Below, one piece after another: positions 5,032 through 29,363 of a stretch of 29,363 nt of DNA. The stretch is from Chiloscyllium plagiosum (lineage: Eukaryota). The notes under the pieces are model-generated. The model did not search any database, was not told the origin of the DNA, and saw nothing but the letters and a program-made list of their open reading frames with translations. The stretch spans positions 103,571,946-103,601,308 of the forward strand of contig NC_057718.1 of assembly GCF_004010195.1 (NCBI RefSeq). The letters run 5' to 3'. The position numbers and the translations under genes were made by a program. Each line of letters begins with the position of its first letter. Position 1 is the first letter of the stretch.

Positions 5032-5099
5032 TAGCTAACAATCTGAGAGAAAGGATTAGCAGTCAGTGAGGAGCTTCGTGAGCACTATAAGATACGGTA

Positions 5100-5478: not shown

Positions 5479-5591
5479 TGTAGTGATCAGAACAGGGGGC
5501 AGATAGATCTTATTGACAATGAGATGCGTGATTGGAGTTGTTAACCTGGTCCAATCAGGGAGCCCTGGCTGACTGATATAAACCAGAGATT
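5479..5591 (+). mobile_element. Solo LTR, 5' part (interrupted by a Tx1-like LINE)
   Basis: Starts TGTAGTGAT. gattgg..ctggtccaatcagggagccctggctgactgatataaa aligns with the intact copy at 8130-8355. Confidence 0.7.
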
Positions 5592-6505: not shown

Positions 6506-6628
6506 TACCGAAGATTCAGAGTGTCCCTTCACTCTAGGGACAGGCTCTGAGCTAACTGATCGGAGCCCATGTACTGTGCACACATGAATAAAGGGTGATG
6601 GGATCCTGGCCTCTGAGCCGTTATTTCG
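6506..6628 (+). mobile_element. Solo LTR, 3' part
   Basis: aataaagggtga...ggcctctg..gttatttc aligns with the 3' end of the copy at 8130-8355 (aataaaatgtga...gcctgtgtggaattatttca). Confidence 0.7.
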
Positions 6629-8405: not shown

Positions 8406-8634
8406 GCAGCCCACACCACCACAACTGAGTAAAGTGTGAACCACAACTTTGTAAGACTGGGCTGGAGGTCTGGATGCAATTGGAGAGCATAAAATGACAG
8501 AAACGTTGCTGTAAAGTTGAGGCAGCAAAAAAACATAAATGACCATGAAAGAAAGTTGCAGCTTTTGGAAATAGGTGTTTAAACAAAATGCCACCAAGAC
8601 GCATAGCTGTGTTGGCAAGGAGAAAGGATGGCAT

Positions 8635-9480
8635 CAGAATATATGACATGGGAGCAGCAGCAGGCTATTCAGCCCATCCCAGCTGCTCCCTCATTCAATA
8701 AGATCGTGGCTGATCTGTTTACATTTCAAATTTCTTATTTCCATCTATCTCCAATTGATCTTTGAGTCCTCTGCCTAACAAGAAACTCTCCTCCTCTACC
8801 TTCAAGATATTCACTGTCACTGCCACCTTTCCAGGCAAAAGTTTCAAAGGCTCAAACCCTCTGACAGAATAACATTATCCTCATCTCTGTTCTGAAAGTG
8901 TGACTGCTAATTTTAAAGCAGTGGCCCCTGGTTCCCTTCCCCACCCACCTTATCAAGACCACTCAGGATTTTATATACTTCAATCAAGTCATCCTCACTC
9001 TTCTACACCCTGTGGAAACAAGGCCCAGTCTATCTAACCTAAAACAAACCACTCATTCCAGTGATCAATCCAGTAAAGCTCCTCTGAGCTACTTCCAGTG
9101 TATTTATATCCTTTCTCAAATAAGGAAACCAAAACTGCGCATATTACTTGAGATGTGATCTCACCAATGCCCTGTATAACTAAAGCAGAACATTCTATGT
9201 TTAGTTCTCCTCCTAATAAAGACTAACATACCATTAGCTTTCCTGGATATCTGTGCACCTGCAAACTAGCCTTTTGTGACTGTACAACACCCCAGATCCT
9301 TCACCCAGCTTGACATTCAGCAGTCACTCTCCATGTAAATAACACTCATTCCTATGTCAGTGAACAATTTCACTTGTACCTACATTATAATTCAACTGCC
9401 AGACTTTTGCCCACTCACTCAGTCTATCTCTACCCATCTGAAAACTCTTTATATCGTCTTCACAACATCTTTCTGACCTA
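8635..9480 (-). mobile_element. CR1-type LINE 3' part, decayed
   Basis: The minus-strand peptide CEDDIKSFQMGRDRLSEWAKVWQLNYNVGTSEIVH matches the CR1 post-RT motif (LQ.DLD.L..WA..WQM.FN..KC.V.H). The tail ggctattcagccc..cattcaataagatcgtggctgatct is at 8660-8716. Confidence 0.85.
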
Positions 9481-9664
9481 CCTTGGTGTTGCCCTGCTGA
9501 TGTAGCCACCATGCATGCCTTGACTATAGAAGGAGGTATCGCAGGAAGGAATGTTCCTGGGCCAAACCTAAAGGCTAACTTTTCAGCCATCACAAGCTTA
9601 AGCAACATCAAAGTGCTCACAACCAGTGAAGCAACATCCTATCTACCTGCTCAGGAGGGCACCA

Positions 9665-9875
9665 AATATCCCAGGGCATCAATCTGAAGCAAAATCATGG
9701 GGCTCTCCCCTGGCAAAGATTCAACGCTCAACCATCACTATCATCTCATTACCACATTACTGTTCGTGAGAGCTTGCTGTACACAAACTGTGATGCTTGC
9801 ATCAGAACACCTACTTCATTGCTTGGGAAGATGCCCCCAGTGGCTGTGAAAGGCACTACATAAATGCAAGTTTCA
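9665..9875 (+). mobile_element. Deu-domain SINE relic (SacSINE1/AmnSINE1-like)
   Basis: cattaccacattactgttcgtgagagcttgctgtacacaaa and the tail tacttcattg..gtgaaaggcactacataaatgcaagt resemble the DeuSINE core and 3' tail as I recall them. Confidence 0.6.
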
Positions 9876-11403
9876 TTTGTCAGCAGATGGTGAGCTCAGT
9901 GTAGATGACCAGCATGTTTACCTTCCTTGGGGCACAGGATCCAGAAGGTGTTGGAACATCAGACTGGTTTGGAAATCCACTGGTGCAGAACATATTAAAC
10001 ACTATGATTTGCACTATTCCTTGCTTCACCATACTCTCTCACACTAATCCTCCACAAACTTGTCTCAGTGCCTGTTATAACAGACAGCCCTCAATTAATA
10101 AGTGTGATTAAGTACAGATAATTCCACAGCTGCCCTCTTAAAGTTTTAGACACAACTGAAGAACGCCATTCTCCTGAGCAGCAAATCTCACTGTGTACAT
10201 TGAAGCAAACTCCACTATTGGTAAGACACACGCAACTGGAAAGCATAGGGAGAGGCACTACGCAGCAACAGCACTGGATTGCCAAAAAGAAGAATTGATA
10301 GTAGGCCAATGAGCACAAGGTAAGGACATGCTGAGGACCAGTGCCTGCAATATATGGGTACCCTTAGTACTGATGATTGGTTATTGTTGCCATGCACACT
10401 ATATTGGACAACGAATTGCATGGGGAGAGCCCAATGCATCAACACTGGCTTATTGATAATATGCATTTAGTTCTAACACTGAACTTATGGCCACACCAAT
10501 GGTATTTGCAATCATGACCTTGGTTAACCAGGCCAAGCCACAGTGTAGCATTTCTCATGAATGCCTGCACTGTTGCTGTAGAGGTTCCTGTGTTCAAAAA
10601 TTCCAAGGTGAAATTCCAACACAGACTGTTTCCACCTTTGACAGAGGGCTGGAAGGCAGCTGTAAGACACTCCAAAATCAACAGGCGTCCTGACGAAATG
10701 CCCGCTCCCCTGTGTGGTGTAGGCACAGTCACAGGATCTTGTCTGTGCCATCACCTATGCCCGAGAGTCAGTTGAGCACACTGCATAGACTGGGTCCTAA
10801 CAAACCACAGCAAGTGAGATCCCTGGTCAGGGTGTAAGGCAGCAATTACAGGGCTGGCTACGAGAACAGTCCTGCCTGCAGCTTGTTGGTCAGCAATGCC
10901 ACCATCCGTCAATGTTACCTTGGAGACAGATTTAGTACAGCGTTAGCCCAGGGACCGAATGAGTGAGGGACGTCTTTCATTGCTACAAGGATAACTTTGA
11001 ACTTTTCCTCCTCACTAACAATGTTAACCAAATCCATTGACATTAATGGAGCAAAATACTTGGCCCTTCCATCTCCTCCAACTGATGGAAGATAACATTC
11101 ACCCCAGAAATCAAACGGAGCCTGGAAATGAATATTCATTCTTCAACTGACTGACTGTGCAGCTGAAGTGTATCCCACAAATTCAGCAACCATCACCAGG
11201 CTATACCGAGCAATATTACTATTCTAGTCATGCATTTTTGCTGAAAATGAAAACTCACGAGTATTAGACGGGAATAAATTCCCACCAACACTATTAAACC
11301 TGACTTCCCTCATCCAGAGTTCTCCGCATCCTCTACTGAAAGGGGCAGTCCCACTCTCATTGGCCACATTCCAAGACATTAGCCAAGCCATTCTTCATTG
11401 TAG

Positions 11404-11560
11404 GAACCAAGAACATAAGGACTAGAAGCAGGACGAGGCCATTCAGACCCTCACGTCTGCTCTGTCATTCAGTAAGATTGTGGTTGATCTTCAACAGCAG
11501 CTTCATTTTCTTGCCCTATCCCCTTCTCCCTTGATTTCCAAGCATCTATTAATCTCAATA
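11404..11560 (-). mobile_element. CR1-type 3' tail fragment
   Basis: aagaacataagg..agcaggacgaggccattcagaccc..ctgctctgtcattcagtaagattgtggttgatct is the same tail as at 8640-8716 and 1-17. Confidence 0.75.
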
Positions 11561-12289
11561 GTGAGTGAGTACGGTGTTAATTTACATCTTATTAAAACCT
11601 GTGTTAAAATTAAGCCTGAGAGATTTTTACTCAAAAGTATTGACTTTTTAAAAAGATAATCACACAGAAAGACAGTAACAATAACTATCATGAGTTCAGC
11701 TGGAAGAGCTTGCACCTTCTGGTGCTGAAGGTGGAGGATTTTCAAGCCACACTCCGAGACCTGGGATCTTTGTTTGGATTGAGATGAGTGTGCAGTCCTG
11801 AAGGAATTCTGCATTATCACAGCTGCTGTCTTCCAGACAAGACATCCAGCCAATTCCCAGCTCAACCATTCCATTATTCCAGGTGACGTTAAAGATTCCA
11901 TCACCTCCTTACCCTCCCCCATGAGGCAGACCACAGTCATTGCAGCCGAGGACTGACTCCAGGCAGAAAACAGAAAAAGAAAACTGTGAGCAAATTGGCT
12001 TCCTCATTTTGTGTCATTCCTTGAACTCGAAGTGCCGCAAAGTCACTTTCGGATTAATTTTTTTTGTCAACAATAAGTTCTCCCAAAATGTGCATAAAGC
12101 AAGATCCATGTCTTAGCTACTTCACACATCAAGATTACAAAGTCCTTACAGTGCAGGAATACGCCATTCACTCCATCTGGTCCATGCTGGTACTTAAGCT
12201 CCACATGAACAGTTTCCCACCCTACTTCGTCTAATGCCATCAACATTTTGTTCAAATACTTTTCCCACCTTGTACTCATCCTCCCCTAC

Positions 12290-12385
12290 CATTCCTAATG
12301 AAAGGACCTGCCCAAAACATCAACTCTCCTGCTCCCTGGATGCTGCCTGACCTGATGTGCTTTTCCAGTGTCACACTGTATCGAC
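12290..12385 (+). mobile_element. Short Penelope-terminal-repeat-like element, decayed hammerhead core, 9-bp flanking duplication
   Basis: attcctaatgaaagg..gcccaaaacatcaactctcctgctcc..ggatgctgcctgacctg aligns to 12989-13083 with CpG decay. CTCCCCTAC occurs at 12281-12289 and 12385-12393. Confidence 0.8.
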
Positions 12386-12434
12386 TCCCCTACTTGTAGC
12401 CATCTAGCTTCCCCATAAATGCAGCCACACTGTC

Positions 12435-12648
12435 CAGTATTCCATCATTCCTAAATCAGCTTTGCCCGAGCCCAAGAGCCATTAACTGAACGGTGATGAT
12501 CCTTGTCTTAATTTTACTTTTTAAGAAATTATTATATATGACTTCTGACATTGATGTAGGCACCATAGTGGGGTGACTTACAAAACTTTTCACTGAATTT
12601 TTCATGTAAAAGTAGAAGCAACAATAAATTTCTATTGTATTCTATTCT
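12435..12648 (+). mobile_element. Possible 3' end of another non-LTR element (Rex1-like) with AATAAA and (ATTCT)n tail
   Basis: caaaacttttcactg..caataaa followed by ttctattgtattctattct. It interrupts the CR1 relic. The family assignment is tentative. Confidence 0.4.
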
Positions 12649-12991
12649 ATGTGATACAGAGTTTCACATTCATTCATCGTTGGGAATGAAAGCTTCTCTC
12701 TTGAATTCCCTTGCGGATTTATTTTTGTTATTTAGCGTGGATTCATCAGTGGCTATCAATATAATCGTGGGCTCTAAACTTGGTCTTTCCACAAGTGGAG
12801 TGGAGACATCTCCTCTATATCTATCCCATCAAACCCCTTTCCTAAAGTTGACAACCTTGTTTTGGTCATCCTTGAATCACCTCTCAGTTCCAGTATATCT
12901 TTATTGCACCCACTTCAGGAACTCCATATCCTTTCTAAAACACATAGTCCAGAACTGGTCACAGTACTCCAAGCGAGGCATATTAAACTTC

Positions 12992-13119
12992 CTGATGAAG
13001 CGCTTATGCCCGAAACGTCGATTCTCCTGCTCCTCGGATGCTGCCTGACCTGCTGTGCTTTTCCAGTACCACACTCTCGACTCTGATCTGTAACATTTGC
13101 AGGCGTCACTTTCTCCTAG
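12992..13119 (+). mobile_element. Short Penelope-terminal-repeat-like element with intact hammerhead core boxes and a 10-bp target-site duplication
   Basis: CTGATGA-A-GCGC-TTAT-GCCC-GAAAC-GTC at 12992-13019. ATTAAACTTC occurs at 12982-12991 and 13120-13129. It interrupts CR1 ORF2. Confidence 0.85.
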
Positions 13120-13807
13120 ATTAAACTTCTGTGTAAATTCAACCTGATTTCTCTGGTTCTCAATTCCAACCCGGTGTCCCATTTGCTTTTTCATGTTTTC
13201 TGTTCTGCCTATGTTACTAATTTCAAATACCTTAGATCCCTCGGCTTCTCAGCCACACTACACAGCTAATTTCCAAGGATTATGTGACCACCGCCTGCTT
13301 CCCATGTCAGAATGTGCCACGACATACTTCTGCGTATACTGAAAGTAATCTATTTCTAATAAACCCATTCTGCACATTTATTGATGTCCCCCTGTTTTTG
13401 TTATAGTCCACCTCTGTACTAAGTACACCCTGAGATATTGTGTCATCTGCATATACTCTGTTGTAGGTCAAATAAAATCAGAGGGTTTAGAATATGGATT
13501 AAGTGGGACCACTTAAAAGACAAAAACTTTGGGAGTCTGAAGGAATTGGAAGAAAAGAGAGTGGAGATTGAAGTGGATGGCATAGCTCTGGAATGAGGAG
13601 ATAGATTTTCTCTGTTTAGGGCAGATGATAAGAGAAGAGGGCAGATGTGATGCGGAATTTAAAATGACGGGACAGATAGCCAGATGTAATCTTGAGGCGA
13701 TGAAGGATGTGTTAACAAAGAAGAAAATTCAAGCTTGAAACAAGAGGAAACAATTTGTAAGATGCCACATTCCATCCAATTTTCCAACCATCTCTGAAAC
13801 CCAAGTA

Positions 13808-13955
13808 ACAGAATCACTGCATTGTAGAAGGAGGCCATTCAGCCTACCATGCCTGTACTGGCTCATTAAATGGGCATCATGTCTCGAGCTATTTTCCCCA
13901 TACACTTGCACAAAATAATCATTCAATGCTCTCTTGAATGCCTCAACTGAAACCT
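13808..13955 (-). mobile_element. CR1-type 3' tail fragment
   Basis: acagaatca..gaaggaggccattcagcctaccatgcctgtactggctc..ttgaatgcctcaa. Confidence 0.6.
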
Positions 13956-14117
13956 GGACAATGAGTAAAATTTATGGAAGAAAATTTTTGAAATGGGGAG
14001 GCTCTGAAGTAGACTGAAGACTTCTACGTACAGGTCGCAAGGCAAATGCAAATGCACTTGTGAAAAGAGCTCTTAAAAAGTGACATTTAAAAACTACAAC
14101 TTTCAGTATTTTGGCCA

Positions 14118-14338
14118 CAAGAACATAAAATGCTGGAGAAACTCAGCATTGTAGTCAGAAAGACAGAATTAATGTTTCAAGTCCAGTGGCCATTTATCAG
14201 AACCCTTTCTGATAAAGGGGTCACTGGACTTGAAATATTAACTCTGTTTTTCTCTCTCTGCAGATGCTGCTGAGTTCCTCCAACACTTCCTGTTTTTGTT
14301 CCACATTTCCAGCAGCCACAGTTCTTTGTTTTTACTCT
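14118..14338. mobile_element. Inverted pair of Penelope-terminal-repeat-like sequences with a 13-bp flanking duplication
   Basis: Arms 14163-14202 and 14207-14247 are near-perfect reverse complements around CCCT. The flanks are AGTATTTTGGCCA (14105-14117) and AGTACTTTGGCCA (14339-14351). Confidence 0.8.
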
Positions 14339-14389
14339 AGTACTTTGGCCATTTGATCAGAGGTGAAAAGCTGCAGAGATCTCCCTGAG

Positions 14390-15095
14390 AGGGCAAAGGG
14401 CAGCATATGAGGGCCTGACCCAGGTCTAATGGGATGATGGCTGTTACAGAGCAGTTGTACAAGAGCTCAAGTGAAAATTTGAGCCAGGTGTAGAACAGGT
14501 GAGCAGGATGTCTTATGACAGGAGATTTTACAAGCAGCAGTAACACATTTGTAAATTCCTGAGTCCACGTTTTAAATGGTGAATGACAATGGTCTCAACA
14601 CTGACCCTTGTGGAGCACCACATCCAAACTCTGACTTAATCTGAACAAGTAAGGACAATATAGTTATTCTTATTTCTGTTAGATTAGCAGAGTGCTATAG
14701 TTGCACCAATTCTGCCACAGCAACTGTGGTGTAGGTGCTTTCCCAGGAAATGTTAAGATTGAGATAAGGATGCAAACCAACAGCAGAATCATAGAGGAGG
14801 AAGAGGGAAAGAATCAGGAGAGAGCTTGATTGCAAAGACAGGGATTAAGAAAGTGTTTCAAGAGAATTGGGTACTTAGGAACCCCCCAGGACTAGGACTG
14901 CTCAGCACACCCAGTGTGAGCACTGTAGCTGTTTCTGAGGAAGAATACTGCTGTCAGGTTTGAAAGTGATGGGAACACATTTCATGCACATGGAGCCAAT
15001 AAAAAGGTCATCGAGCTTTGAGGCAAGGACAGGTAGCTGAATGATCAGGAGTTGGCAAGGGAGACAGTCAAGGTCATGGAAATTGGGTCTCACAC
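14390..15095 (-). mobile_element. L2-like LINE ORF2 relic
   Basis: The minus-strand peptide RPNFHDLDCLPCQLLIIQLPVLASKLDDLFIGSM...VPITFK resembles the L2 pre-RT motif (P.SC.LDPIPT.LL...LP.L.P.L..I.N.SL..G.VP..FK). Boundaries are approximate. Confidence 0.55.
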
Positions 15096-18000
15096 AGCAG
15101 ACACAATTACATCTGTCTGAACTGAACTGAACTATATCATGTTATTAACTTAAAACATACATAATATATGCAGCAAATAAAAATTTAAGACCTTACCACC
15201 CAATGACACTGATACCAAAATCAGGTAACATAATAAGTTTGCATGTACCACGCACACTTGGAGCTCCTACTGAAGTTCCATTAACCAAAAGGTAATGTGC
15301 TTTGACTAGAATAATAAATGCAGTTTCATATCACATGACTTGATGAAGGTTTATTATATGAAGCTTAAAATAACACCCACACCCTGTGAATCATCAGCAG
15401 CTAATTCACAAATCTGTCCAATAACCAGAGGCGTATTGCATTTACTGTATATAAACAGATTTGATTCCTGCATTTACACATTGATACATGTCATATTGCA
15501 CAGACCATGCCTATCTGTCATCATTAATTGTTTTCTGCCTATAGATTCTCCAAACCAAATTCCATGATTCTACAAACTGAAGGAGAACAAGATAAAATTT
15601 TGCAAAATGAGATGACTAATTATCTCTATACTTGGAAAGATTCAGAATTTAATGAAAGGAAATATTGTTTTATATATAATACCATTTACGCTAATGGTAG
15701 CTGGTACTGTAATGGTAATGCTGTAGCTGCTACTGGGTTTTAATTGATAAAACAAAATGGGTTCTTTAATAAAGTGTTTTCTAAAATTTCCCTCAATTTA
15801 TATTTTTCTTGCTACATAATTTGCCACACACTATGTCACAGAAATCTTGTAATTTCCCAAGGCCAGGGGATTAGTATAAATCATAATCTCAATGCTACAC
15901 TTAACAAGCTAGTTATGAGCTAACAAAGTGTAAATGCCAAGTCATAATTTTAATAGCTCAGCTCTTTTGTTTTAATTCAAATTAAGGATCAAATTTTCTG
16001 ATTGGGACTCATTAAAATTGGCATGTCACTCTCTTGATCTCTTGTTAGGCCAGACATAAATAAAAATCTGTCTCAAGTTAATTTCATTACTTTTGTAGGT
16101 TGATAAAAAAAAAATCACAGATTATAGGCTTCCCCCTAAAAATATGATGAGTTTATTTTGTGATTAAAATATTTCAGAGCAGCATTTTAAAAGAGCCACT
16201 TTTATGTACCGTCATGAAGCAAGTGGTGTATTAGCTTGTTCTGATAAACTTTAATATTTTTTATACATTCATTTCCCCAAGTCAAAGTAAGTAAAGCCTG
16301 AATTTTTTTTTTAAATTGCAGCTTTGTCATGAATTAGAAGCAAGTGACATATTTTACAACACAGACACCTGTACTTCAGCAAGCAAATTATTACACATTA
16401 TTACCCAGCCAAAATGTTTAAAATGTAAGAATGCCTACAGAAAACAGTTTAAACAAATCGCCATTCACCACTTTATATGGCCAAATACATTGTCATAGCG
16501 AATGCACCAAACTCATTTCAAACAACTGTTCTCTATAAATAAATCCACTCTCCACTTTAACTTCAGTCTGTACAAATAAGGTCTATACAAGTGTGTAGTT
16601 CCTGTTTCCTGGCCAACTTTAATTGTGCAGGAGAATTCACATCTACTACCAACATGGTTAAAAATCAAATTCACTTCATTATGGCAACATCACTCACTCA
16701 TAATCGTTTTAATTTGTGCATTGTTCACTGCTGCTAAACACAAGCTACACTCAAATTCCTGCCAAATAAAAGTAACCCATTGAAATCTAAGAGTTAAAGA
16801 AATAGTACTTAGGAAAATGTTTGTTCACTGCAGGAGAACTCTGTCACCTTGAGGTACACAGTGCAGATAGGGATAACCTATAAACCCTTTGATTAACATC
16901 TTTAACTAGCAAGTGGCTAGTAGGAATGATTCTAATGGAATATAGTTTAGCCATAAAGGTTACTATGATTTTACCCAGTTGCGACGCTGTCAGTTAGAAA
17001 TACTTGAATGACATATTTGTATTTTTGTTATCAAATTAGACAAATTTTGCACAAGTTTTTGGACACAGGCTTGGATTAAAGCAGAATATTAAGAACGGAG
17101 TTTTGGTTTATTGGAAGCAAGCCCTTTTAGACGGAGTGAAAGCTTTATTCTAGGATGGTGTGCTCTCTAGGGCAGATTACTTTCCAAAAGGCAGCCCCAA
17201 GCTATTTTTCTTGTCATATGCTGCTATGTAAGCTTTACATATACAACATAAATTGTTTTCTTTCTTTCTGTTATTTTAATTATCGCCCAGTATTTTCAAC
17301 ATGTACCTGATAATAACCAGATGTGATCAGTGTACCATGAAGCATTGTGCTGTGTGCAACCTTCCACAGTGTGTGACAAAATGTAGAAATGTTGAACAAA
17401 ATTTGGTTTTCTGGACAATGCTTCAGAGAATAAATTCTATAAAGTGTAACATAATACTTTTTAAGGAATTACACTTCAAGCGTTTTGCTATTTTACCTTT
17501 CATTCCGAATTAAAACAATTTATGTTTCATGAGAGAATTTAAAATCTATTTAACTACTGTGCTTTATTCCTTCAATATCATTTCTCTGCTAGAAGAGGTA
17601 GAAGTTAGTAGATCGCTCATTATAGATTTTTGTTTATATTAATAAATGTAGAAGGATTTCATTCCTTTCCCATTTTGACTCATTAAAAGAATGTCTTCTG
17701 GAAATATTTAGTAAAATTTCAGAACCCATGTTTGGTATTTTTAGATTCCAGATAGTTGCAAACTGTATGAGATAAAACAAGAGCTCATGTACAAGACAAC
17801 ATCAGTGATCCAACAGATAACAAATGTACTGAAAGAAAAATGAAACATTAGCTAAAGAGATTGAGATTTTGGATCAATAGCTTTCATTTAGTAAGCTACA
17901 GTTACTGTCAGTTTAAAATGTAAGAAAATCTGAAATGAGAGGAAAAAAAACTCTTTATCCCATATAGACCGTTCCTTTCCATAGACTGCACAAAAAGTGT

Positions 18001-18743
18001 AGCATTGACCATAGACTCTTCTGAACTTGTATAGTATCCCAACAATGAGTAATGACAGGTTGAACTTCCATAGCCCACAATGAAGATACAACAAAAAAAA
18101 TTGTTTTACAATATCATACGTTATATATCATTCAACACAGTGCTGTACACAGAACTGTGAGGCTAGCTACAAGGCAAAATTTACATGTCATTCTTATGTT
18201 ATTTCGTTTACAAATCATGAAAGAAAAATTAAAGATAAAATTATATAAATTTGGGGGAAACAGCATTTATGATGGCATCTGCCAGAATGTTTATTTATTG
18301 TATTTTGCTCCCTGATTAGATTTTAAATTAAATCATAAATTGAATAGTAAAATTAACATAATGTATCTACTTGAAAAAGATTGGTAAAGCAAACTTTTAT
18401 TTGAGATCAGTATATTTATTTGAATTGCTAGTTTTTTTAAATTTAAAAACATTGTTTATCCACCACAAGCTGTCACAAAGTAATAATGCTGGCAAAGATT
18501 ACTAAGAAGTAACTGCAGACTGAGCTTTAACCTATTCAGACAGTACAGACTGAACACATCTGTGGCAGTGACAGCAAAATGCTTGCAATTTAAAACACAG
18601 CCAACTGCAAATAACAGAAAGGCACATTCCACATTGCCTATTAACTATTTCAAAGTGCATACTTCATCTTAAAAATGTTACATTGAAATGTTTCCATTTT
18701 GTTCCCAACACTCAAAGGTTTTAAGTAAATGAGGAAGTATATG

Positions 18744-19600
18744 GACAATCCACCTCCTGAAACCCCCATCACCACAGATACCAGACTTCAGCTAATTCAA
18801 TTCACTCCAAGTCAAGAAATGTCAGCGCACACAACATAGAGCAAAGGTTATGGACCCTGACAACACCCCAATACTGAAGACTTGAGCACCAGAGTCTGAC
18901 CATTTCCCTTTGTCATTCAGTGGTAATACCATAGTGAATCAGCTACTATCAAAATCCTGGATGTTACCATTTAATGTGATACCTAATGAACAAATTACGC
19001 AAATGCTTGTGCCAATGTAAGCAGATCAGAAGCTGGGAAGTCTGCAGTAAGCAACTCACCTCCTGACTCCTCGCAACCTATCTGTTAAAAAGGCACAAAT
19101 CAGTGTGGAATACTATCCAACTACTTGGATGAGTGTAGCTCCAGCAACATTCAAGAAGTTTGATAACATCCATGACAAGGGAAACTGTTTAACTGGCATT
19201 TCATCCATCACCTTAAACATTCACTCACTCCAAAGCTTTAATTGTGTGTCTCATTTGCAAGATGTACCGTAGCAATTCACCAAATCATCCTTGATAGTAC
19301 TTAATAAAAACTCACCATTTCTATCAGCTAGAAGACCAAGTGCAGCAAACACATGGCAACAACGCTGCCTGAAAGATTCCCCAAGCCACACCATCCTGAT
19401 TTGGAAACCTATTGTATTCCTTCTGTCATTGGGTCAAAATCCTTAAAGTCTCTCCCCAACAGCATTGTGGGGGATATCCGCACTCCACAGACCACAGTTG
19501 TTCAAGAGGGCAGCTCACCACCACCTTCGCTAGGGCAATTAGGGATGGGCAATAAATGCTGGCCCATCCAACAAAATCTAAAATCCCATGAATGAATGAA
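18744..19600 (+). mobile_element. L2/Crack-like LINE relic with internal deletion and 3' tail
   Basis: Fragments read MDPDN.. (GPDNIP-like), THLLTP, WMSVAPATFKKFDNIHDK. The 3' end has caataaatgctggccc and (atga)n. The tail is shared with 4930-5031. Confidence 0.7.
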
Positions 19601-21879
19601 ACATGTACATCAACACAGACTGTTACCTGATCACAACAAAGGCCAAGAGTACAAAAGAAAGTCGGCTAAAAATCAAAGTCAATATTGAAATGCGATGAAA
19701 AGAATGTGGGCCAGCCTTACTGTTACAAAGTAACACATATTCAAATACAGAATGACTAGACAAATGTGTTTTGTACCAGACTATATAATAATGGTTAATC
19801 CAATAAATTGGTTATTCACAGCATTGTAAAATTACCAGCTTAAACATTTTTACAAAAAACAAAGCTTCTATTACCAGGAACTGCACCCTCTAATCTTTGT
19901 TCACACCTTCACAAAAACAAAAAGGAAAGTCTCAATTATACCAAGAAACACCTAACCCAGAAATTTCAAACAGAATTTTTTATAACACTGTGCAATTGTA
20001 TCCAAGAACATCATTAAGGAGAGAAAAAAAGTTGCTGAAATATCCTGTATCGAGCGAATGCAATGCCATCAATATGTAAACTAAATTACTATATTCAAAT
20101 TTGTTTTTCCAGCACACAAAACACAAGTTAGGTCCACAACGTGCTTCATTCATAAGCATTTTTATTTTAAACTTATAGCAACCAGCATGAGTTAACCATA
20201 CCACAAATAGACCAATCAAATGATGGAACCACCAGATATAACACCTTTGTGACTTATACACCCAGGTCCAATCACTGTTTAAGTATCACAAGCGAACCAA
20301 CCTCTTCCCTCCTAAAACATATACATGTAACTCGAGCAACAGCTTTAAACAGTCACAAGCCACAATACATCTTGTTCTGTCTAAAAAAATGTGGCAATCC
20401 GTAAATTCAGTTCACTAATGTTTACTATTTAATATGCTATAACACTTTATTAGCTTTCACACCTCAAATAAGTCATCAAACATTACATAAGATTTGGAGC
20501 AAAACTCCAGAACAGCTGAGGAATTAAAGATCAATTTGTAATTAAGAGATTAATAATCCAGTTACAGCCATCTATACAAACTCCAGACATATTCACAGGG
20601 CAAAGAATCTAAAGACAGAGCAACAGATAACAATATTGCAAACAATTGGTGTAACATTTAATCTAATGACAAAACATAGATTTTGATTGTTTGAGCAATG
20701 CACATTAATTGCACAATTAGCCTTGTATCTAAGTAAAAAAGTGGAGACCAAGAGAAAAACAGAAATTTAATTGAGATCTCTGCTCTTCCACCAACTATTA
20801 TAAGCAAAGTTTCTGAGTGAGAGCTTTGACAGCTTTTTTGTAACATTGTGTAATGAAATTATATAAAATAAAAATGAGAGAAAGCAATCAAAAATGCATA
20901 ATAAAGATAACACAGAAAAAAAAACACATCCACTCAGAATACTCTTCTTATTGGAACTATATTTGAACACTTAACACCAGAGCCAAGGACTGTTTGGAAT
21001 TATTTGTTATCAACATGAGATATTTTTATGAGGATTATTTTATGTTTTCCCTTGAAACATACAAGGGCTACTCTAAATTTAGCAATTTCTGATTTTTATT
21101 TTAGTGTGGTAGGAATTAGGCTTGGGGCTTTTACATGAACTCTGGGAACTAAACTTATTCTGCAAGTCCCCAGTGAAACAAATACTCAGTGGATCAAAGC
21201 AGGTGATATGAATCTGCCCTTGAACAGAGACTGGTTGAAGCACTGAAATTAAAGGGAGAGTTTTAGGGTATTTTAGTGCTTAAGATTAATTCTTAAAATT
21301 GCTACTTTTTCTAAAACAAAAGTTCTCAATTGTTGTTTGAAATTATTTATACCACTAAAGTTAGTGACACCTTTAACTCAAAATAAAATTCGTTTCAAAA
21401 GGTAATTGATTTAAATTCTCTTCCTTCCTGAAATTATACCCAGCTTTCCAATATTCCATTATGGAAGACACTTCAGATAGAATCTGTTCTATATTCCCTT
21501 CCCAATATCAAATCGTAAGTTGCAAAATTCCATACACTTTTTAATTTCATGACTATTGCAATCTTTCACCACCCTTTCTATAACATCACAGCCCCAATAT
21601 GCTGCTGTATAAGAGCCCAGAAACTTGTATATAGGCAAGGATAAGGTACAAATACAAATTAGTTGTGCCGCCTGAGTTTTACTCTTGCGCTTAGTACCAT
21701 TGGAGTTGCTGGATTGTATTTCTTTGGAGAATATGCAAATACAATTTGTGAACAAAATCTCAGAGGAATGTTCATAATTAGAACATCTTTTAGCTGGTTA
21801 GCAACTACTTCAAGAGATCCAATGCAGTTATTTTGCGTTAGTTTTCTCAGACGGGAGAAATCTTTCACAGCTTGTTTCA

Positions 21880-22140
21880 CACAAAGCACCGGCTTTTCTA
21901 GGACACCCTCACACCGCGCCACTCCCAGGACACAGGCAGCAAGGTCCGAGAGAGGTCAGTCAGCCTCCAGCAGCGGCGAGCTCCTCGGATGCCAGAGGGA
22001 CGAAGTGGCAGGGCCAGGGCGGCTGCGAGCAGGCAGCTGGACGCGGAAACGGGCCCGGAACCCACTCAGACCAGTCCCGTAGGGAAGGACCGGGGCCAGG
22101 GTGGTGTCAGGATGGGCAGGGTGAAGGCCACGTGACAAGA
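21880..22140. promoter_or_regulatory. GC/CpG-rich island-like segment in intron 6
   Basis: Sharp switch from AT-rich DNA to GC-rich DNA with many CpGs (ccgcgcc, gcggcgagc, gggcggctgcg, gacgcggaaacgggcccgg). Confidence 0.55.
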
Positions 22141-22168
22141 CCAGGGCACTGTCAGAATGGGCAGGATC

Positions 22169-22500
22169 AGGGTCATGTGACAGTGCCAGTCAGTGTAACA
22201 ATGGGCACAGTGAGGGTCATGTGACAGTGCCAGTGTAACAATGGACAGTGAGGGTCATGTGACAGTGCCAGTGTAACAATGGGCACAGTGAGGGTCATAT
22301 GACAGTGCCAATGTAACAATGGGCACAGTGAGGGTCATGTGATAGTGCCAGTGTAACAATGGGCACAGTGAGGGTCATATGACAGTGCCAGTGTAACAAT
22401 GGGCACAGTGAGGGTCATGTGACAGTGCCAGTCAGTGTAACAATGGGCACAGTGAGGGTCATGTGACAGTGCCAGTCAGTGTAACAATGGGCACGGTGAG
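22169..22500. repeat. Minisatellite, 8 units of 38-44 bp (consensus AGGGTCATGTGACAGTGCCAGTGTAACAATGGGCACAGTG)
   Basis: Units start at 22169, 22213, 22251, 22291, 22331, 22371, 22411 and 22455. Units 1, 7 and 8 carry an extra CAGT (44 bp) and unit 2 lacks 2 nt. There are no unique spacers. Confidence 0.97.
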
Positions 22501-22604
22501 ATTGAAGATTCCCACTGAATGAGGTTGGCATGGGCAATCTGTGGGCAAGGCCGGGTGGTGTGCAATGTGAGATGTGTTTCTAGCCGTCTCCACAATTTCC
22601 AAAC

Positions 22605-22685
22605 AGCCAATGAAGAACGGAGCTGGCGGGCAATCACTGACAAACGAGTATAAAACTATCGAGGGCATTTTTCCCGAATATCCCC
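22605..22685 (+). promoter_or_regulatory. Candidate Pol II core promoter antisense to MEIS1 (CCAAT box, GC box, TATA box)
   Basis: AGCCAATGA at 22605-22613, GGCGGG at 22625-22630, TATAAAA at 22649-22655, in canonical order and spacing. Motif evidence only. Confidence 0.35.
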
Positions 22686-24439
22686 TCGCTCCGTGGCATG
22701 GTTTGGGAAAAAAGGAGTGAATGCAACAGGAACTCAGCTACTGAATCCTCACGCCCCAGTCCAGGGACGGTCCCGTTTCTACACCAACGCTGGCCTCAGG
22801 CAGAGCTCGCGCACTCTCTCTGCTTTCTCCAGCAACTCTTTCCAGCCGATTCCTAACGGACCAAGTGTTTGCTGTGAAATGTTCACTGGTGAGGCCTGAA
22901 ACTGGGTCAACTCCATTCCGGAGTGGCCGCGGAGTCGGTCAGAGTTTCCCTGTGGAGGGAGAGAGGGAGGACTTCGGGAGTCTATAACAATAGCAACCAC
23001 CCCCCTCCCAACCACCTAAGAAATGCCAGCCTGAACAAGGGACAGTAACTCCTGCCACAACCCAACACAGAAGTAAACATGTGTAGTCTCCAAATAAATT
23101 ACATTTCATTTTTTTTTCTTCTGACATTGCTGTGAGATATTTTCAGTTCAATTCATTTGATTATATTTTTGCCAGAGGGTAGACATTAAAAATACATCGC
23201 GGATGGGTTAATCTCGTGAAATTTACAGCGCTAATATCACCAATCAGGACCTAATGGGAAGGAGAGAGCTTTCAGTATGTTTTTAAAAAAAAGACATGAT
23301 CGGTGTGAAGCACAATTTTTTCCCGCATTATTTTTTGTATAAACTTTTCTTCACAGACACTCGTGAAATCAAAACCACAAAATATAAACTAGCCTGATTT
23401 CTGCTGTTAGCGAAGAGTGGGAAGGGGAAACTGGGGATGCTTCTCTGGGTAGGAATCTTTGCTTCAATTAAAACTAGAGGTCTCCTTACTGTTATTCTAA
23501 GCAGGATGTAGCTATAACTTTTTGTGTGCGAGTATCCAGCGCCGGTGCAGTATTTTCCCCGGGTTTAATTAGAACACAAGTGGGAATGAAACGTCTGTTC
23601 AGAGTTGGAAATAGGTGCATTTTTTTTAAATCCTTCTTATCCGTGGAACATAATGAACAGGGAATCCCGCTGAATCTGAAATCACTCGTTCAGGAGTATT
23701 GTCTATCTCCTTGTGATCTGGGGAGTGTGAGAAAGCGGATGTATTTTCCGGGTACCCTCCCTGTCCTGAAGCGGTCATTTCCACCCCCCACTAAAACCGT
23801 CCCCAAAATTCTCACACGCGGTAAGAAGTGAAGATGATAGTCCTGACAATAACCTCACGGTGGGATTGTTCAGAGATCGCTGTGTCATTCCCAGCCATCT
23901 CCAAACTATATCTGATCACAACTGCTTGTCCCGCAAATACCCCGCGTTTGTGCAGCATTTGAAGCAGTTTAATTTGGAAACATGTGGGAATGAGAGTCTT
24001 GTTCACAGTCTGAACATGGGAAAATTTATCTGTATGATTTTTTAAACTACATGTACAGAGATAGACAGAAAGCAGATTTGACCAGACTTTGTGAGCTGAC
24101 ACTACCCCATATCCCAAGAGTTCTGTACATCTTGCTAACTCTGTTTAAAAATGCTGTGATCCCCTCGCGTTGTTTCTGGGGTATGAGGAGTAAATGTATT
24201 TCCAAATATCACAATGTGGGCGCGGAGGGGGCAGGCTGTAAGGGCTGGCGAGGATGTCCTGTCTCCGTGTGGGGCTGCACTCACTTGAAAAGGAACCGTC
24301 ATATCGAATCCCTACTCTGGATCAGCCGCCTCTCTCTCCTCCCGTTCACCAAGGGCAGCTGGAAGTGTCAGGGATTCCCTGGGATCCCTCCACTCTCCCA
24401 CCCTCTTATTCCCCCTCAGCAATTGCCTTTCCTCAAAAA

Positions 24440-24650
24440 CGAAACCGTCCCCAAATCTCAAAGCTGCGGGACGGAGCTAGTACCGCGTTCCCAAGGCGCC
24501 GGCTCCTTTCTGCAGCGTCTGCCCGAGTCGAGTGCGCTCTGACTGGGCGCCTGCGGGACACGCTCCCGCCCCTGCTTTAGACCGAGCCGCCGCTACAGAC
24601 AGAAAGTCTGAGAGCAACTCACTCACCCCAACCCTAGCGTCTACGCTTCC
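24440..24650. promoter_or_regulatory. CpG-island-like segment with GC box
   Basis: Dense CpG (ccgcgtt, ggcgccgg, cccgagtcgagtgcgc, gggcgcctgcgg, ccgagccgccgc) and CCCGCCCC near 24565-24572. Confidence 0.55.
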
Positions 24651-25183
24651 TTCAAACAAAAAAATCAAATAGAAAAAAAAACACAAAGTTATCGATCACT
24701 AAATTCCACCTTTTTCTTTTGTTAAAGTGTGGGGGACCGAGGAAAAAGGCTCACACACACAGTCGGCCCCACAGCAGCCGAGTTGGCACTTCAGTCTCAC
24801 CGAAGCTAAAGACAAAATTCTATCCCTTTCTCTCTCTGCAACCCCTACATTACAAACACCATCATCTCAAACACCATCCAGGTCAGCAGCAGCTCCTTGT
24901 ATTATTTTATTAAAATGACGCCTCAACCACAGCAATGTCCTGAAGGAAACAAAGAGGGAAAACGACCACAGGGAAGAGGGTGAGAAAAAATATTATCGGG
25001 TCAATTTTACAACCATCAGTCCACACACACACACCGGCACAAACAACCGGGCAAGCTTCAGTACATAATGTCATACATTCTTTCTGACTAAGATTCAAAG
25101 GGGTCTTGACAATATGCAAATAACCAGCAGTCAAACAGCGACAGTAGGTATTCCGTGTCCCCCCCCAGCAGCTCTGGCCGTAC

Positions 25184-25336
25184 CTGATCTGTGATATTAA
25201 CTGATGAAGACCTGGTGATTTCCTCGTTGTCCGATTTGGAACCGCCTTCCCTCTCATCAATGACTAGGTCAATGGGCATTTTCCCTTTCAAGCAACTGAT
25301 GTACCGGTGGCAAAAATTGTCACATAATTCGTGCAC
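25184..25336 (-). CDS. MEIS1: MEIS1 coding exon 6 (153 nt); CDS continues beyond the left edge of the window
   Basis: Acceptor ccaattgtag|, donor CAG|gtacgg. Translates [58 protein letters not shown] and ITRS are MEIS1-type. Confidence 0.95.
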
Positions 25337-25870
25337 CTACAATTGGACGATGACAAGAAAATAATAAGGGAAACAATACGCGAGAAAATACATATTTCCT
25401 TTTTCAACAAATTCATTCTAGTGGAAGTGACAAGTCCAACTCAGGACTGTGTGACTCGGGTTTCTCAATAGTTGGAAGCACTTGTGAGTGCCCCCCACCC
25501 CCTCCCTCCCTCCCTCCCTCCCCCCAAGAGACACACGCATCAAGAATTTGGAATAACCGACAAAATAGAGATATCGGTGCAAAATTGGCAGTGACAAGAT
25601 GATTCACAGCTACAACGCACTCAACACCCCGTGTTAAATTTGCCTGCTCCCGGGGCTGTGCCCATTAGACGTTTGACCTGCATGAATGACATTTAAGGTA
25701 AACAGTTTAATTTCGTCTCGTTATTTCATTATAAACCTCTGAACAATTTCGGGCGCACGAAAATGGGATGTGTAGGATGGCACAGCTCGACACTGCTCAC
25801 GTCTTCAATAAGTACATATGTCCTGGGAGATTTGAACCATAGGAAACTGCTTACACTTTCTGTCACGCCA

Positions 25871-25886
25871 CCCCCCCCCCCCCCCC
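25871..25886. repeat. Poly-C run (poly-G on the MEIS1 strand) in intron 5
   Basis: 16 consecutive C. Confidence 0.85.
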
Positions 25887-26301
25887 AATAAAAAGTTGGA
25901 TTTGTCATTTAGATTTGATTAAAATATTCCCCGCGGACTAACAGGAGAAAATATTATGATTTCCCGCCTAATTATTCCGATTGTTGACATCTTTAGATCA
26001 TTTGTAACGTGTGGGCTCGATGGGGGGAGAAAGTGAGGATTTATGTTTTTTTAAAATAAAAAAAAATGGAGCTGATCAAAATTAAACCCCACAGCGAGAT
26101 TAAAATGAACAAAACGGCGGGGCGTTTGTGGTCAGGGGTTTTAGTGGAATGAATTGTAATCAAAGAACAAGAGAAATGTGAGGCAGGATTGGCTTTGACA
26201 CTAATTACGAACAAGCCAGACCAAGACATACATGCAAATGGTGCTCGCACTGAGCAGTAATGTTTATAACTATCCAGCAGCCAGAGCAAGGAAGTACGTA
26301 C

Positions 26302-26352
26302 CTTCTCTAACTCCAAAAGGTGAAACCTTAACACTTGTATGGCTTGAATCAT
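26302..26352 (-). CDS. MEIS1: MEIS1 coding exon 5 (51 nt)
   Basis: Acceptor cctttcag|, donor AAG|gtacgt. Translates MIQAIQVLRFHLLELEK. Confidence 0.96.
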
Positions 26353-27395
26353 CTGAAAGGAAACAGGTAAATATCTATTAGCACCCGGAAACGCACGGGG
26401 TTGGGAAACTTCTTATCCTGTTCCCCATTTTTAAAAACAGTTGCAATAGCAGAATCTTTAGTATTCCCTCCGCGTGAGTGTTTGGGAGAGAAGGGGGCAG
26501 GCACGCTCGAGTTGGCTGGTCTGCAAAAACAGGCAATATCATCACTGTTTGTTCCTAAAACCCCACTCCCCAGCCCCCAATCCCCCCCATTCCCAGCTCC
26601 TCCAGCTCTACTGACACCAACGCCAACAGTCTATATTAACCACACAGGCATGGAACAGGCCGACTAGCGCGCACACACACGAACACGCTTCCCCTTTCTC
26701 TTTGCTGCCTCTTAGAAACCCTATAAACTTTTATTCTCTTTTTTAAAAAAGTAGAAAGGAGTCAGTTGGGGGGTGGAGGGAAAGTGTGCTGTTGTGTGTG
26801 TGTGCGTGCGTGGGGGGGTCAGAAAGATTTAGCTTTCTTCAGAAAAATAAAATAGAGCGACTCCTTAAATTCATTAGGCCAGATTACTCCTCGCCACCAC
26901 ACACACACACACCAACCCTTCTCTCTTTTTTTTCTCGCCCTTCTCCCTCCAACCCAGTCAATTTAAAGTCAGAACCGAGCCCTGAATATTAAGGAATCTG
27001 CGCCGGGACTCGAAATTTCACGACAGAGGCCAAAAAGCGAAAATTAAATGAAATATATATTTAAAAATCACGCCTCATCTTCAGTGGAGTGACAGCCATA
27101 CAATAACTGAGTCTGATGGTTATCGTCCTGACAGTCATAGCTATCACAAAATCAAAAAAACGCAGATTTGCAATGGATTGTAACGATCACTTTTTTTCGC
27201 TCTCTCTTTTCTCTCGCTCACTGCCCTCCCCTAAACATGCGGCTGCATTAAACTGACAATAGATTCCCAGCCGTCTCCCAAGAAGTCCTGACAATTTGCC
27301 ACGATAAATATATATTTGTTTTGGTTTTCAGTGGAAACGGTTTCACGAGCTTTTCTACAGCGACTTCCCTCTACTGAATAAGCGGCCAGGCTTAC

Positions 27396-27446
27396 CAAAT
27401 TATCCAGCTCAGGGTTGGAGGAAAATAGAGGTTTTTCTGCTCGAAT
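27396..27446 (-). CDS. MEIS1: MEIS1 coding exon 4 (51 nt)
   Basis: Acceptor cccactttag|, donor TTG|gtaagc. Translates IRAEKPLFSSNPELDNL. Confidence 0.96.
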
Positions 27447-27920
27447 CTAAAGTGGGAAGATAAATACAATTGTCACTTTCCCCCCCGCTCCGCTCCTCTG
27501 AGTCGATACATTCAACTAGATTTACAGACTTCCAAAAATCTAATATCACACATTAGCGACAAGGATATTTTACCCAGTATTAGCCCAACAGATAGCAAGT
27601 GACTTAATTTCAAAAGGAACACTTTATGATGCATTAACAACTTATTTCAAACAATTAAAAAAAAAAAAAATATTCACAATTAAAGTTAAACTGACTGCGT
27701 TTTCACTGGTAGCAGCAACGTAAATTAAAATGGTCCGATTGTGGTCGGTTTCTACCACTGTCCCAATTCGCATTTTGACACCGTTTTAATTTGATATTGT
27801 TAACATCTTCAGTTCTGTTTGTCGGCACAAAAGGCGCTCTGTGTAAATCTGTGCTGAACTCTGCTGCAGACCAGGAGAAACTGAGTCTAGTCCACTGAAA
27901 TTACTGCTACTTTTTCTTCA

Positions 27921-28130
<210 letters not shown>

Positions 28131-28674
28131 TCAAAAAAAAGGGGAAAGAACAAGGCAAAAGGAGATTCGCTTTTGGGCGATCTAGACGGTACAGTATGAA
28201 CTTTTGTATAACTTACTTGTTGACTGTAGGCTTTACATAAATTACTGGCGTTAAACGTACCGATTGGGAAAAAAAAACACCGCGGTCCCTTCTAACTCTT
28301 AGCAAGTCTGTCTCTCTACCGAGCAAGCCAGAAATTAGGAACGAAACGGCCCAGAAATAACCTTTTAAGCAGCCATTTTGGACGCCAATTTTTTCTTTTA
28401 ATAAAAATACGTATAAAAATATCCAATATCATGTGTGCGCCTCTGAGTTCTCCTGATATTTACAATGGTAAATGAAATTTAACTCACTCCTAGAGTTCTT
28501 TCACAGAACGTCAATTTCGTACACAAGCCGAGGCGAAACTTTGTCGGTTTTTTTGTGTGTTTAGCATTTTGTTTGAGAATTTCAATGAAAACTAACATGT
28601 CACGTGTAAGGTCTCTGCCGTTGGTCACAGAATAGCGTTGAGGAACTCATGGTCAAAAGGTGTCAGCTACCTAC

Positions 28675-28901
28675 CCGTAAATCGAGTCTTTATCTCTCTT
28701 TAATGCATCGTTTACCGAGGAGCCCATGTTTGGTGGCATGGTATTAGCGTGGTTAGTGTGCGGATATTGGTGGCTGTGCAGCGGTGGCCCGTGGTTGAGA
28801 TGGTGCACAGGTTGCAGAGACCTGGGGGCGTGAGGGTCACCATACATTGTTGTCGGTATCCCTACTCCGTCCATACCACCGTAATGTGAGATTTCGTCAT
28901 A
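28675..28901 (-). CDS. MEIS1: MEIS1 coding exon 2 (227 nt)
   Basis: Acceptor ttttggatag|, donor GG|gtaggt. Translates [94 protein letters not shown] and MGSSVND match MEIS1 rather than MEIS2 (GVGVP, LHATQHYG, MGSAVND). Confidence 0.96.
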
Positions 28902-29170
28902 CTATCCAAAACGGAGAGAGAAGGAGAGAGAAAGCACCGTGAGGAAAACGGGGAAGAAATCGTGTGTCAACAAAGTTACAGGCACAAAGCGCGCACGTTT
29001 GCAAATCGACCAACTTCCTGACAGAACAGAGGCGCGAGAAAATACAACCCCACACACACATACACAGAAAATTAAAACTTTTCACAGGCATCTAAATGTA
29101 GCGCGCTATCTGCAAATGGATCGCGTTTAACACTCGCTTTAGAAAACGGACCAGTTCAAAAAGTACTCAC

Positions 29171-29182
29171 CCTTTGCGCCAT
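29171..29182 (-). CDS. MEIS1: MEIS1 coding exon 1 (MAQR)
   Basis: Minus strand reads ggccg ATG GCG CAA AGG|gtgagt. This is the MAQR start of vertebrate MEIS1/2, followed by a strong GT donor at 29170. Confidence 0.95.
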
Positions 29183-29363
29183 CGGCCTGTGTCCCTGTGT
29201 AGCAGCTTCTGTTAGAGTCTGGAAAGGGCCAGTATCAGGCAAAAACACACAGTCCAAAGCCAGATCAAGATTTCCTCAAAGTGCCTTCTGTAGATGATCA
29301 GCTGTGTGTGTGCGTTGTGTGTGTCTCTCTCTCACACACACACACACTCCCCCCCTCCCTCCC
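29183..29363 (-). other. MEIS1: MEIS1 5' UTR / exon 1 non-coding part (TSS not defined)
   Basis: Directly upstream of the ATG. No upstream ATG seen on the minus strand. Contains dinucleotide runs. Confidence 0.6.
29304..29347. repeat. Compound (TG)n(CT)n(CA)n microsatellite in the 5' UTR region
   Basis: tgtgtgtgtgcgttgtgtgtgt ctctctctc acacacacacacac. Confidence 0.85.

What the first reader, a model, noticed from the sequence alone, without database searches (positions are those of the whole stretch)
22169..22500. Minisatellite inside MEIS1 whose repeat unit carries the MEIS binding motif plus three other TF motifs
Seen: 7 of 8 units contain TGACAG (unit 5 has TGATAG). Every unit has GGGTCA and AACAATGG, and 6 of 8 have TCATGTGA (units 4 and 6 read TCATATGA). 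Established: TGACAG is the canonical MEIS/TGIF site, RGGTCA a nuclear-receptor half-site, TCATGTGA an M-box (MiT/TFE, USF), and AACAAT a SOX site. Meis genes respond to retinoic acid. Inference: the array could be a homotypic, copy-number-tunable autoregulatory enhancer. It lies ~2.7 kb downstream of exon 6 in CpG-retaining, transposon-free DNA. Caveat: one chance 6-mer is multiplied by any tandem expansion, so the copies are not independent evidence.
Basis: partly seen in the sequence, partly recalled or inferred. Interest (0 to 1): 0.72.

Follow-up and report, generated by a model that had tools for sequence, protein, structure and literature searches.

The report
Variable minisatellite in shark MEIS1 intron
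An eight-copy, 40-base DNA repeat sits in an intron of a shark MEIS1 gene and recurs, with changed units and likely different copy numbers, at the same spot in two related species; its units carry look-alikes of transcription-factor sites, but these mutate as often as the rest of the unit, so it is most likely an ordinary passenger repeat and not a self-regulating switch.

Summary
The array is locus-specific: no diverged copies from other loci were seen in three same-species runs. It occurs at the same place in two relatives (flanks 2.2% and 4.3% diverged). Depth-estimated size differs: about 9, 15 and at least 23 units.

The enhancer reading is not supported. Three of the four motifs overlap in one 14-bp near-palindrome. 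GGGTCA has no partner half-site, so there is no retinoic-acid element. There is no PBX/HOX site. In dinucleotide shuffles of the CA/TG-rich unit, TGACAG appears 8% of the time. Of 16 placeable unit changes, 8 hit the 20 of 40 motif positions and 4 hit TGACAG: no sparing.

Best reading (0.72): a locally born, near-neutral minisatellite. In favour of function: it borders the CpG-rich zone whose human counterpart holds a proven MEIS1 enhancer, and its E-box is the least chance-like motif. The scan noted a similar 'autoregulatory' array before, in shark STAT3 (e1-9306425), judged coincidental there.

The parts
22169..22500 (.). Minisatellite, 8 units of 38-44 bp (40-bp and 44-bp types; variant units 2, 4, 5, 6, 8); 1 CpG
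22252..22265 (+). 14-bp core of the canonical unit 3: overlapping RGGTCA, TCATGTGA and TGACAG around the 10-bp near-palindrome GTCATGTGAC (intact in 5 of 8 units)
   Evidence: sequence
22275..22280 (+). AACAAT (SOX-like; label recalled) in unit 3; reads AACAAC in a high-depth unit type of organism C
22087..22168 (.). Two decayed 5' units; 22125-22168 carries CACGTG and a minus-strand TGACAG at 22149-22154; the 45 nt at 22105-22149 are skipped in organism B
22145..22187 (.). Perfect 10-bp inverted repeat (arms 22145-22154 and 22178-22187) across the array's 5' edge; folding z -2.62 as single-stranded DNA on the + strand, -1.68 on the - strand
21881..29363 (.). CpG-retaining zone over MEIS1 exons 1-6 and proximal intron 6; the array is a CpG-free gap at its distal edge
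25184..25336 (-). MEIS1 exon 6 (153 bp, 51 codons, AG/GT ends); intron 6 runs from here past the window's left end
   Evidence: peptide matches P0002
28675..28901 (-). MEIS1 exon 2 (used to identify the gene); other exons 29171-29182, 27969-28110, 27396-27446, 26302-26352

Best explanation
This is a single-locus minisatellite in intron 6 of a shark MEIS1 gene, shared with two related species, that likely arose by local duplication of a CA/TG-rich 40-44 bp stretch and likely gains, loses and homogenises units by slippage and unequal exchange, its transcription-factor look-alikes most likely riding along without selected function. Shown: the array, its decayed 5' units, its presence at the same place in organisms A, B and C, unit variants that break each of the four motifs, and no diverged copies elsewhere in the runs laid. 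Estimated from contig depth: differences in copy number. Inferred: the mode of origin and turnover, and neutrality. The motif density follows largely from one near-palindrome in a unit rich in TG and CA steps, multiplied by the repeat.
For: (1) No sparing of motifs: of 16 distinct placeable unit changes (window plus runs X9, X14), 8 fall in the 20 of 40 motif positions (binomial P 0.60 for a deficit) and 4 hit TGACAG, 6 of 40 positions (P 0.92). The first two units on contig 24 of run X9 (organism B) lack plus-strand TGACAG. In organism C one unit has a 5-bp deletion through it, one lacks GGGTCA, and a type at about 6x flank depth reads AACAAC. (2) Chance: the unit has 12 TG/CA steps against 4.7 expected. 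In 100,000 dinucleotide shuffles TGACAG appears in 8.4%, and 5 or more of 24 recalled motif families (the unit's count) in 9.9%. TGACAG/CTGTCA occurs 23 times elsewhere in the window, 0.79 per kb. (3) Grammar missing: no DR1/2/5 partner, no TGATNNAT, TAAT, TTAT or decamer in the array. PMC7259794 defines RAREs as paired half-sites; PMC6023610 places functional TGACAG near PBX:HOX sites. (4) Local origin: decayed units grade into the 5' flank. (5) The 5' flank is the least conserved of three flank pieces against organism C: 24 of 348 against 27 of 900 on the exon-6 side (Fisher P 0.004). (6) A review states that most VNTRs evolve under neutrality (PMC12776774).
Against: The array has persisted at one site in all 3 of 3 organisms laid. 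It lies at the edge of a CpG-rich zone whose human counterpart is a proven enhancer (PMC9343249). The unit is motif-rich under the less strict nulls: 5 or more families in 1.9% of 1,443 background windows and 0.5% of base shuffles; all four named motifs together in 0.014% of dinucleotide shuffles, although chosen after the fact. GTCAYGTGAC arises in only 0.26% of shuffles. All 7 records of run X5 and all 6 of X1 match window units at 99% or more, and the array records listed cover motif-intact unit types. Run X15 reads TGACAG where window unit 5 has TGATAG. The commonest C units may keep the 14-bp core: most of their differences lie near contig ends and were not listed. Copies are redundant, so a functional array could tolerate loss in single units; 16 changes give little power, and I left out unplaced differences and one heavily diverged C record.
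Confidence: 0.72

Rival explanations
1. The array is a homotypic E-box cluster: MiT/TFE (or USF; recalled) dimers would bind the TCATGTGA palindrome in each unit and tune the neighbouring intron-6 enhancer in proportion to copy number. MEIS and nuclear-receptor matches would be by-products of the same palindrome.
For: TCATGTGA is the TYR-enhancer MITF element, bound with only moderately lower affinity than the CLEAR box (PMC10539308). It is the least chance-like motif (TCAYGTGA 1.0%, GTCAYGTGAC 0.26% of shuffles), and 6 of the window's 7 TCAYGTGA matches are in the array. It has no CpG, so methylation cannot block it (inference). Five to ten motifs gave mild activation in a tandem-repeat reporter series for another factor (PMC13373173).
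Against: Broken in 2 of 8 window units, in the first two B units and by a 5-bp deletion in C. In PMC13373173 the restricted tandem repeats with motif clusters had no general gene-regulatory activity. No chromatin data.
Confidence: 0.15
2. One reading: MEIS1, alone or with partners, binds the repeated TGACAG and feeds back on its own gene, with copy number setting the gain and retinoic acid acting through GGGTCA.
For: 7 of 8 units carry the monomeric MEIS/PREP hexamer (PMC6023610). The locus is unique, variable in size and beside the counterpart of the E2 enhancer zone. Short unit types in B and C that lose plus-strand TGACAG carry it on the minus strand (read from tables 3-5).
Against: TGACAG is hit by 4 of 16 changes against 2.4 expected. 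It is expected in 3.4% of background windows of this size and 8.4% of shuffles; with 10 arrays in a gene the chance that one carries it is 29% at the lower rate. No PBX/HOX partner site; no RARE geometry; MEIS, E-box and half-site overlap, so they would compete (inference).
Confidence: 0.06
3. The array acts without specific factors, as a CpG-free, length-variable spacer that marks or shifts the edge of the unmethylated intron-6 domain.
For: CpG observed/expected drops to 0.05 in the array between flanks of 0.55 and 0.63, and falls to about 0.2 further into the intron.
Against: CpG-rich sequence continues for about 290 bp beyond the array (21881-22168), so it is not the boundary itself. The lack of CpG follows from the unit's own sequence.
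Confidence: 0.05
4. The unit belongs to a dispersed satellite or transposon family inserted here.
For: One record of run X14 runs on into 20 unlike letters at 22267, and C's high depth could include other loci.
Against: At 80% likeness, X1 gave 6 of 6 records at 99%+, X5 7 of 7, X15 8 of 8 at 95%+, none running on into unlike sequence. Raw reads of X19 (about 4% of the run, 4 reads on 2.1 kb) gave none on the array, where a multi-locus family would pile up. No match elsewhere in the window beyond 11 bp, E 0.4.
Confidence: 0.02

Closest known systems
Non-coding VNTRs/minisatellites whose unit holds a TF site, e.g. the 72-bp SIRT3 intron-5 VNTR (PMC12776774, passages)
   Same: Intronic, single-locus, tens-of-bp unit, variable copy number and internal variants that make or break a motif.
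   Different: Allele-dependent reporter activity is reported for SIRT3; none is shown here, and motif positions are not spared.
MORC3-repressed tandem-repeat enhancer of IFNB1 in a FOCAD intron (PMC13373173; abstract and sections 11-13)
   Same: Intronic tandem repeat giving a homotypic motif cluster, variable within and between species.
   Different: That element has 45 PU.1 sites, keeps the motif across mammals while the unit changes, and repression needs more than 15 motifs. Here there are 6-8 copies of each motif in the window, no sign of motif-specific constraint, and only three close species compared.
Human MEIS1 intron-6 CpG-island enhancer E2 (PMC9343249; passages and first part of Results)
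   Same: Same gene and intron; the shark intron 6 also has a CpG-retaining proximal part.
   Different: E2 is single-copy, depends on an ETS/FLI1 site and lies in a CTCF-bound region. The array is CpG-free with no ETS match in its unit. E2 could not be mapped on the window.
TALE (MEIS/PREP-PBX-HOX) enhancers with HEXA and PBX:HOX or DECA sites (PMC6023610, passages)
   Same: Contains the HEXA word TGACAG.
   Different: No PBX:HOX octamer and no DECA site; those enhancers lie in highly conserved DNA.

Membership tests
Minisatellite / VNTR | Head-to-tail units of 10-100 bp | tested here: met
   Period 40, 8.1 copies, 92% matches
Minisatellite / VNTR | Single locus with unique flanks | tested here: met
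   No diverged or run-on records in X1, X5, X15; no read pile-up in X19. Contigs show presence, not absence.
Minisatellite / VNTR | Unit variants differ among individuals and species | tested here: met
   T22343C in X15; X1 and X5 show no records with the window's variant units 4-6; further variants in B and C
Minisatellite / VNTR | Copy number varies | tested here: inconclusive
   Depth ratios give about 8.7 (X1), 14.8 (X5) and at least 23 (X14) units; B skips one decayed unit. No record spans the array, library types are not on record, and the tool warns that contig depth is no copy number.
Retinoic-acid response element | Two half-sites spaced 1, 2 or 5 bp (PMC7259794) | tested here: not met
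   8 half-sites, 38-44 bp apart, none on the minus strand
TALE-bound enhancer | TGACAG hexamer | tested here: met
   7 of 8 units
TALE-bound enhancer | Nearby PBX:HOX octamer or a decameric PBX-PREP/MEIS site | tested here: not met
   0 TGATNNAT and 0 decamer matches in 22085-22520
TALE-bound enhancer | Motif under purifying selection | tested here: not met
   4 of 16 placeable changes hit TGACAG, 2.4 expected; low power
TALE-bound enhancer | MEIS occupancy, open chromatin, reporter activity | not testable with these tools
   No chromatin data could be identified as such
Tandem-repeat motif-cluster enhancer (IFNB1-MRE type) | Homotypic motif cluster made by the repeat | tested here: met
   6-8 copies per motif; below the more-than-15 threshold for MORC3 repression in the window, possibly above it in organism C
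Tandem-repeat motif-cluster enhancer (IFNB1-MRE type) | Motif kept across species while the rest of the unit drifts | tested here: inconclusive
   No sparing in 16 changes, but at 4.3% divergence a 14-mer survives by chance 54% of the time and most differences in common C units were not placed
Tandem-repeat motif-cluster enhancer (IFNB1-MRE type) | Activity scales with unit number | not testable with these tools
   Needs reporters or allele-specific expression

The most novel reading that the evidence does not exclude
A young, lineage-restricted VNTR has parked 6 to more than 20 copies of a palindromic site that MEIS and MiT/TFE/USF factors compete for at the edge of the ancient MEIS1 intron-6 enhancer, giving these sharks a copy-number-tuned autoregulatory dial on a dosage-sensitive developmental gene.
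Probability: 0.06. Interest if true: 0.7.

Novelty: new member of a known kind. Interest (0 to 1): 0.2.

Why it matters
On the best reading it matters little: a polymorphic marker in shark MEIS1 and a clear example of how a CA/TG-rich unit multiplies chance motifs. If the array did bind MEIS or an E-box factor and scale with length, it would be a rare natural case of an autoregulatory VNTR at a developmental master gene, testable because alleles of different make-up already segregate. No paper on this array came up: the search for MEIS1 + minisatellite + shark gave 0, and none of the listings describes it. The library lacks most subscription papers.

Tried and rejected
No whole genome is held, so no genome-wide BLAST was possible. 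Rfam: 0 matches in the window. Earlier findings by place: none; by sequence: 3 unrelated windows sharing 2-3 of 47 words, ignored. Hairpin-driven origin: a single unit folds no better than shuffles (z 0.05 and -0.72), two units z -1.12 and -1.53; only the 5' edge on the + strand (z -2.62) and the whole array as RNA (z -2.62, ill-defined centroid, and shuffles do not keep the repeat) stand out, so this was not adopted as a mechanism. The idea that CATGTG came from an ancestral CACGTG by CpG decay is left as a guess: the CACGTG-bearing unit is skipped in organism B, so its age is unknown. Gaps in cover (X15 at 22134-22268; X14 at 22138-22190) prove nothing. Of 21 runs listed I laid 7 (X1, X5, X9, X10, X14, X15, X19). 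Paper search returned 0. Prokaryote, phage and plasmid collections were not searched, as they do not bear on a shark intron.

Full report
Observation. The array is real and described correctly. Splitting 22169-22500 at each unit start gives 8 units; TGACAG is in 7 of 8, GGGTCA and AACAATGG in 8 of 8, TCATGTGA in 6 of 8. TRF gives period 40, score 507; it is the only long tandem array among the 6 rows for the window. Two decayed units lie 5' of it (22087-22168; P 0.008 and 0.001), none 3'. The gene is MEIS1 on the minus strand: five exons with canonical splice ends were placed and exon 6 (25184-25336); the exon-2 peptide is identical to the cluster headed by Chiloscyllium plagiosum Meis1b and 76% identical to shark Meis2a. 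The array lies 2,684 bp into intron 6. CpG observed/expected is 0.55-0.97 in the 1-kb windows from 23 kb onward and 0.07-0.45 in those up to 22 kb; the array itself holds 1 CpG (0.05) between CpG-retaining flanks.

Is it dispersed? No genome is held, so I used public runs. One search listed 21 runs; 18 hold the stretch, in three coded organisms. I laid 7 at 80% likeness. In organism A, X1 gave 6 records, X5 7 and X15 8, all 95% alike or better, none running on into other sequence. X19 raw reads (about 4% of the run) put 4 reads on 2.1 kb and none on the array. A dispersed family is therefore unlikely; contigs cannot prove absence.

Relatives and variation. Organisms B and C carry the array between the same flanks, which differ from the window by 39 of 1,799 and 76 of 1,768 aligned bases. 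Ratios of unit-contig depth to flank depth suggest about 8.7 units in X1, 14.8 in X5 and at least 23 in X14. These are rough: no record spans the array, library types are unknown, and part of C's depth could come from elsewhere. Unit make-up differs among individuals: canonical 40-bp words occur 1.9 times in the window but at 5.0 and 9.0 times flank depth in X1 and X5, whereas X15 carries the window's variant units 4-6 except that unit 5 reads TGACAG. B skips 45 nt of the decayed part.

Are the motifs special? First, three of the four are one feature: GGGTCA, TCATGTGA and TGACAG overlap in positions 2-15 around a 10-bp near-palindrome, so their factors would compete (inference). Second, the unit has 12 TG/CA steps against 4.7 expected and no CpG. 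With dinucleotides kept, TGACAG appears in 8.4% of shuffles and 5 or more of 24 recalled motif families in 9.9%. Less strict nulls make it rarer: 1.9% of 1,443 background windows, 0.5% of base shuffles; all four named motifs together 0.014%, but they were picked after seeing the unit. The E-box is the least chance-like (1.0% for the 8-mer, 0.26% for the 10-mer). Third, known grammar is missing: half-sites are 38-44 bp apart, not DR1/2/5 (PMC7259794, passages), and there is no PBX:HOX or decameric site (PMC6023610, passages). Fourth, selection: I tallied by hand 16 distinct changes against the 40-bp unit, 6 from the window and 10 from X9 and X14. Eight fall in the 20 motif positions (one of them keeps RGGTCA), 4 hit TGACAG; neither shows a deficit (P 0.60 and 0.92). 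Left out: differences near contig ends, which the tool does not list, and one heavily diverged C record. The commonest C units may keep the 14-bp core while one loses AACAAT; retention of a 14-mer at this distance is expected 54% of the time. Redundant copies weaken this test.

Context in favour of function. Human MEIS1 intron 6 has a CpG island with the E2 enhancer, which loops to the promoter and depends on an FLI1 site (PMC9343249; passages and first part of Results; supplements not read, and they may give the coordinates needed to map E2). Meis introns 6-9 are long and rich in conserved elements across animals (PMC3140891, passages). Tandem repeats can work as motif-cluster enhancers whose output scales with unit number, although most such repeats in that study showed no general gene-regulatory activity (PMC13373173; abstract and sections 11-13). 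TCATGTGA is a good MITF site (PMC10539308, passages). A review holds that most VNTRs are neutral and that few enhancer VNTRs are documented (PMC12776774, passages). Against: the flank just 5' of the array is the fastest-changing of three flank pieces against C (6.9% against 3.0% on the exon-6 side). The SOX label for AACAAT and USF binding to this E-box are recalled and come from no call.

Mechanism. Most likely (0.72) a 40-44 bp stretch at the distal edge of the CpG-rich zone duplicated before A, B and C split and has since expanded, contracted and homogenised; the motifs are passengers. Next (0.15) is an E-box cluster that modulates the neighbouring enhancer; MEIS autoregulation gets 0.06, a spacer effect 0.05, a dispersed family 0.02.

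Verdict. Observation confirmed; interpretation partly supported on locus-specificity, variability and neighbourhood, not on motif function. A new member of a known kind (intronic minisatellite with TF-like words). Interest 0.2.

Noticed in passing
window 21600-23400; runs X5-X8, X12, X13: Six runs with small contig sets (142-265 million letters) still hold most of the words that whole-genome-sized runs of the same organism hold, which suggests enrichment-type or RNA libraries covering this intronic stretch; library type is not on record.
   Followed up: partly
window 22105-22149: A 45-nt decayed unit with CACGTG and part of the left arm of a perfect 10-bp inverted repeat is skipped in organism B and probably C; gained in A or lost twice is unresolved.
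   Followed up: partly
window 23037-23038: Organisms B and C both carry a 21-23 nt insertion relative to the window here, so the window's lineage likely lost it.
   Followed up: no
window 22935-22970: A contig from another locus in run X10 matches this short stretch, perhaps a small dispersed-repeat remnant inside the CpG-rich zone.
   Followed up: no
window 14157-14253: Inverted repeat of 35-nt arms, 89% complementary, 27 nt apart, within a repeat-like stretch of intron 6.
   Followed up: no
window 1-19570: Several interspersed repeat-like families (12309-12377/13007-13075; 4936-5006/19500-19570; 8656, 11430, 12155, 13826) fill distal intron 6; not classified, as no repeat library was available.
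   Followed up: no
window 27090-27134: Two MEIS-type hexamers 39 bp apart in single-copy, CpG-retaining intron 4; better placed than the array for a conserved MEIS input, untested.
   Followed up: no
protein P0009: A Scyliorhinus torazame protein named Meis2 is 96% identical to this MEIS1 exon-2 peptide, against 76% for other shark Meis2a, so its name is probably a mislabel.
   Followed up: no
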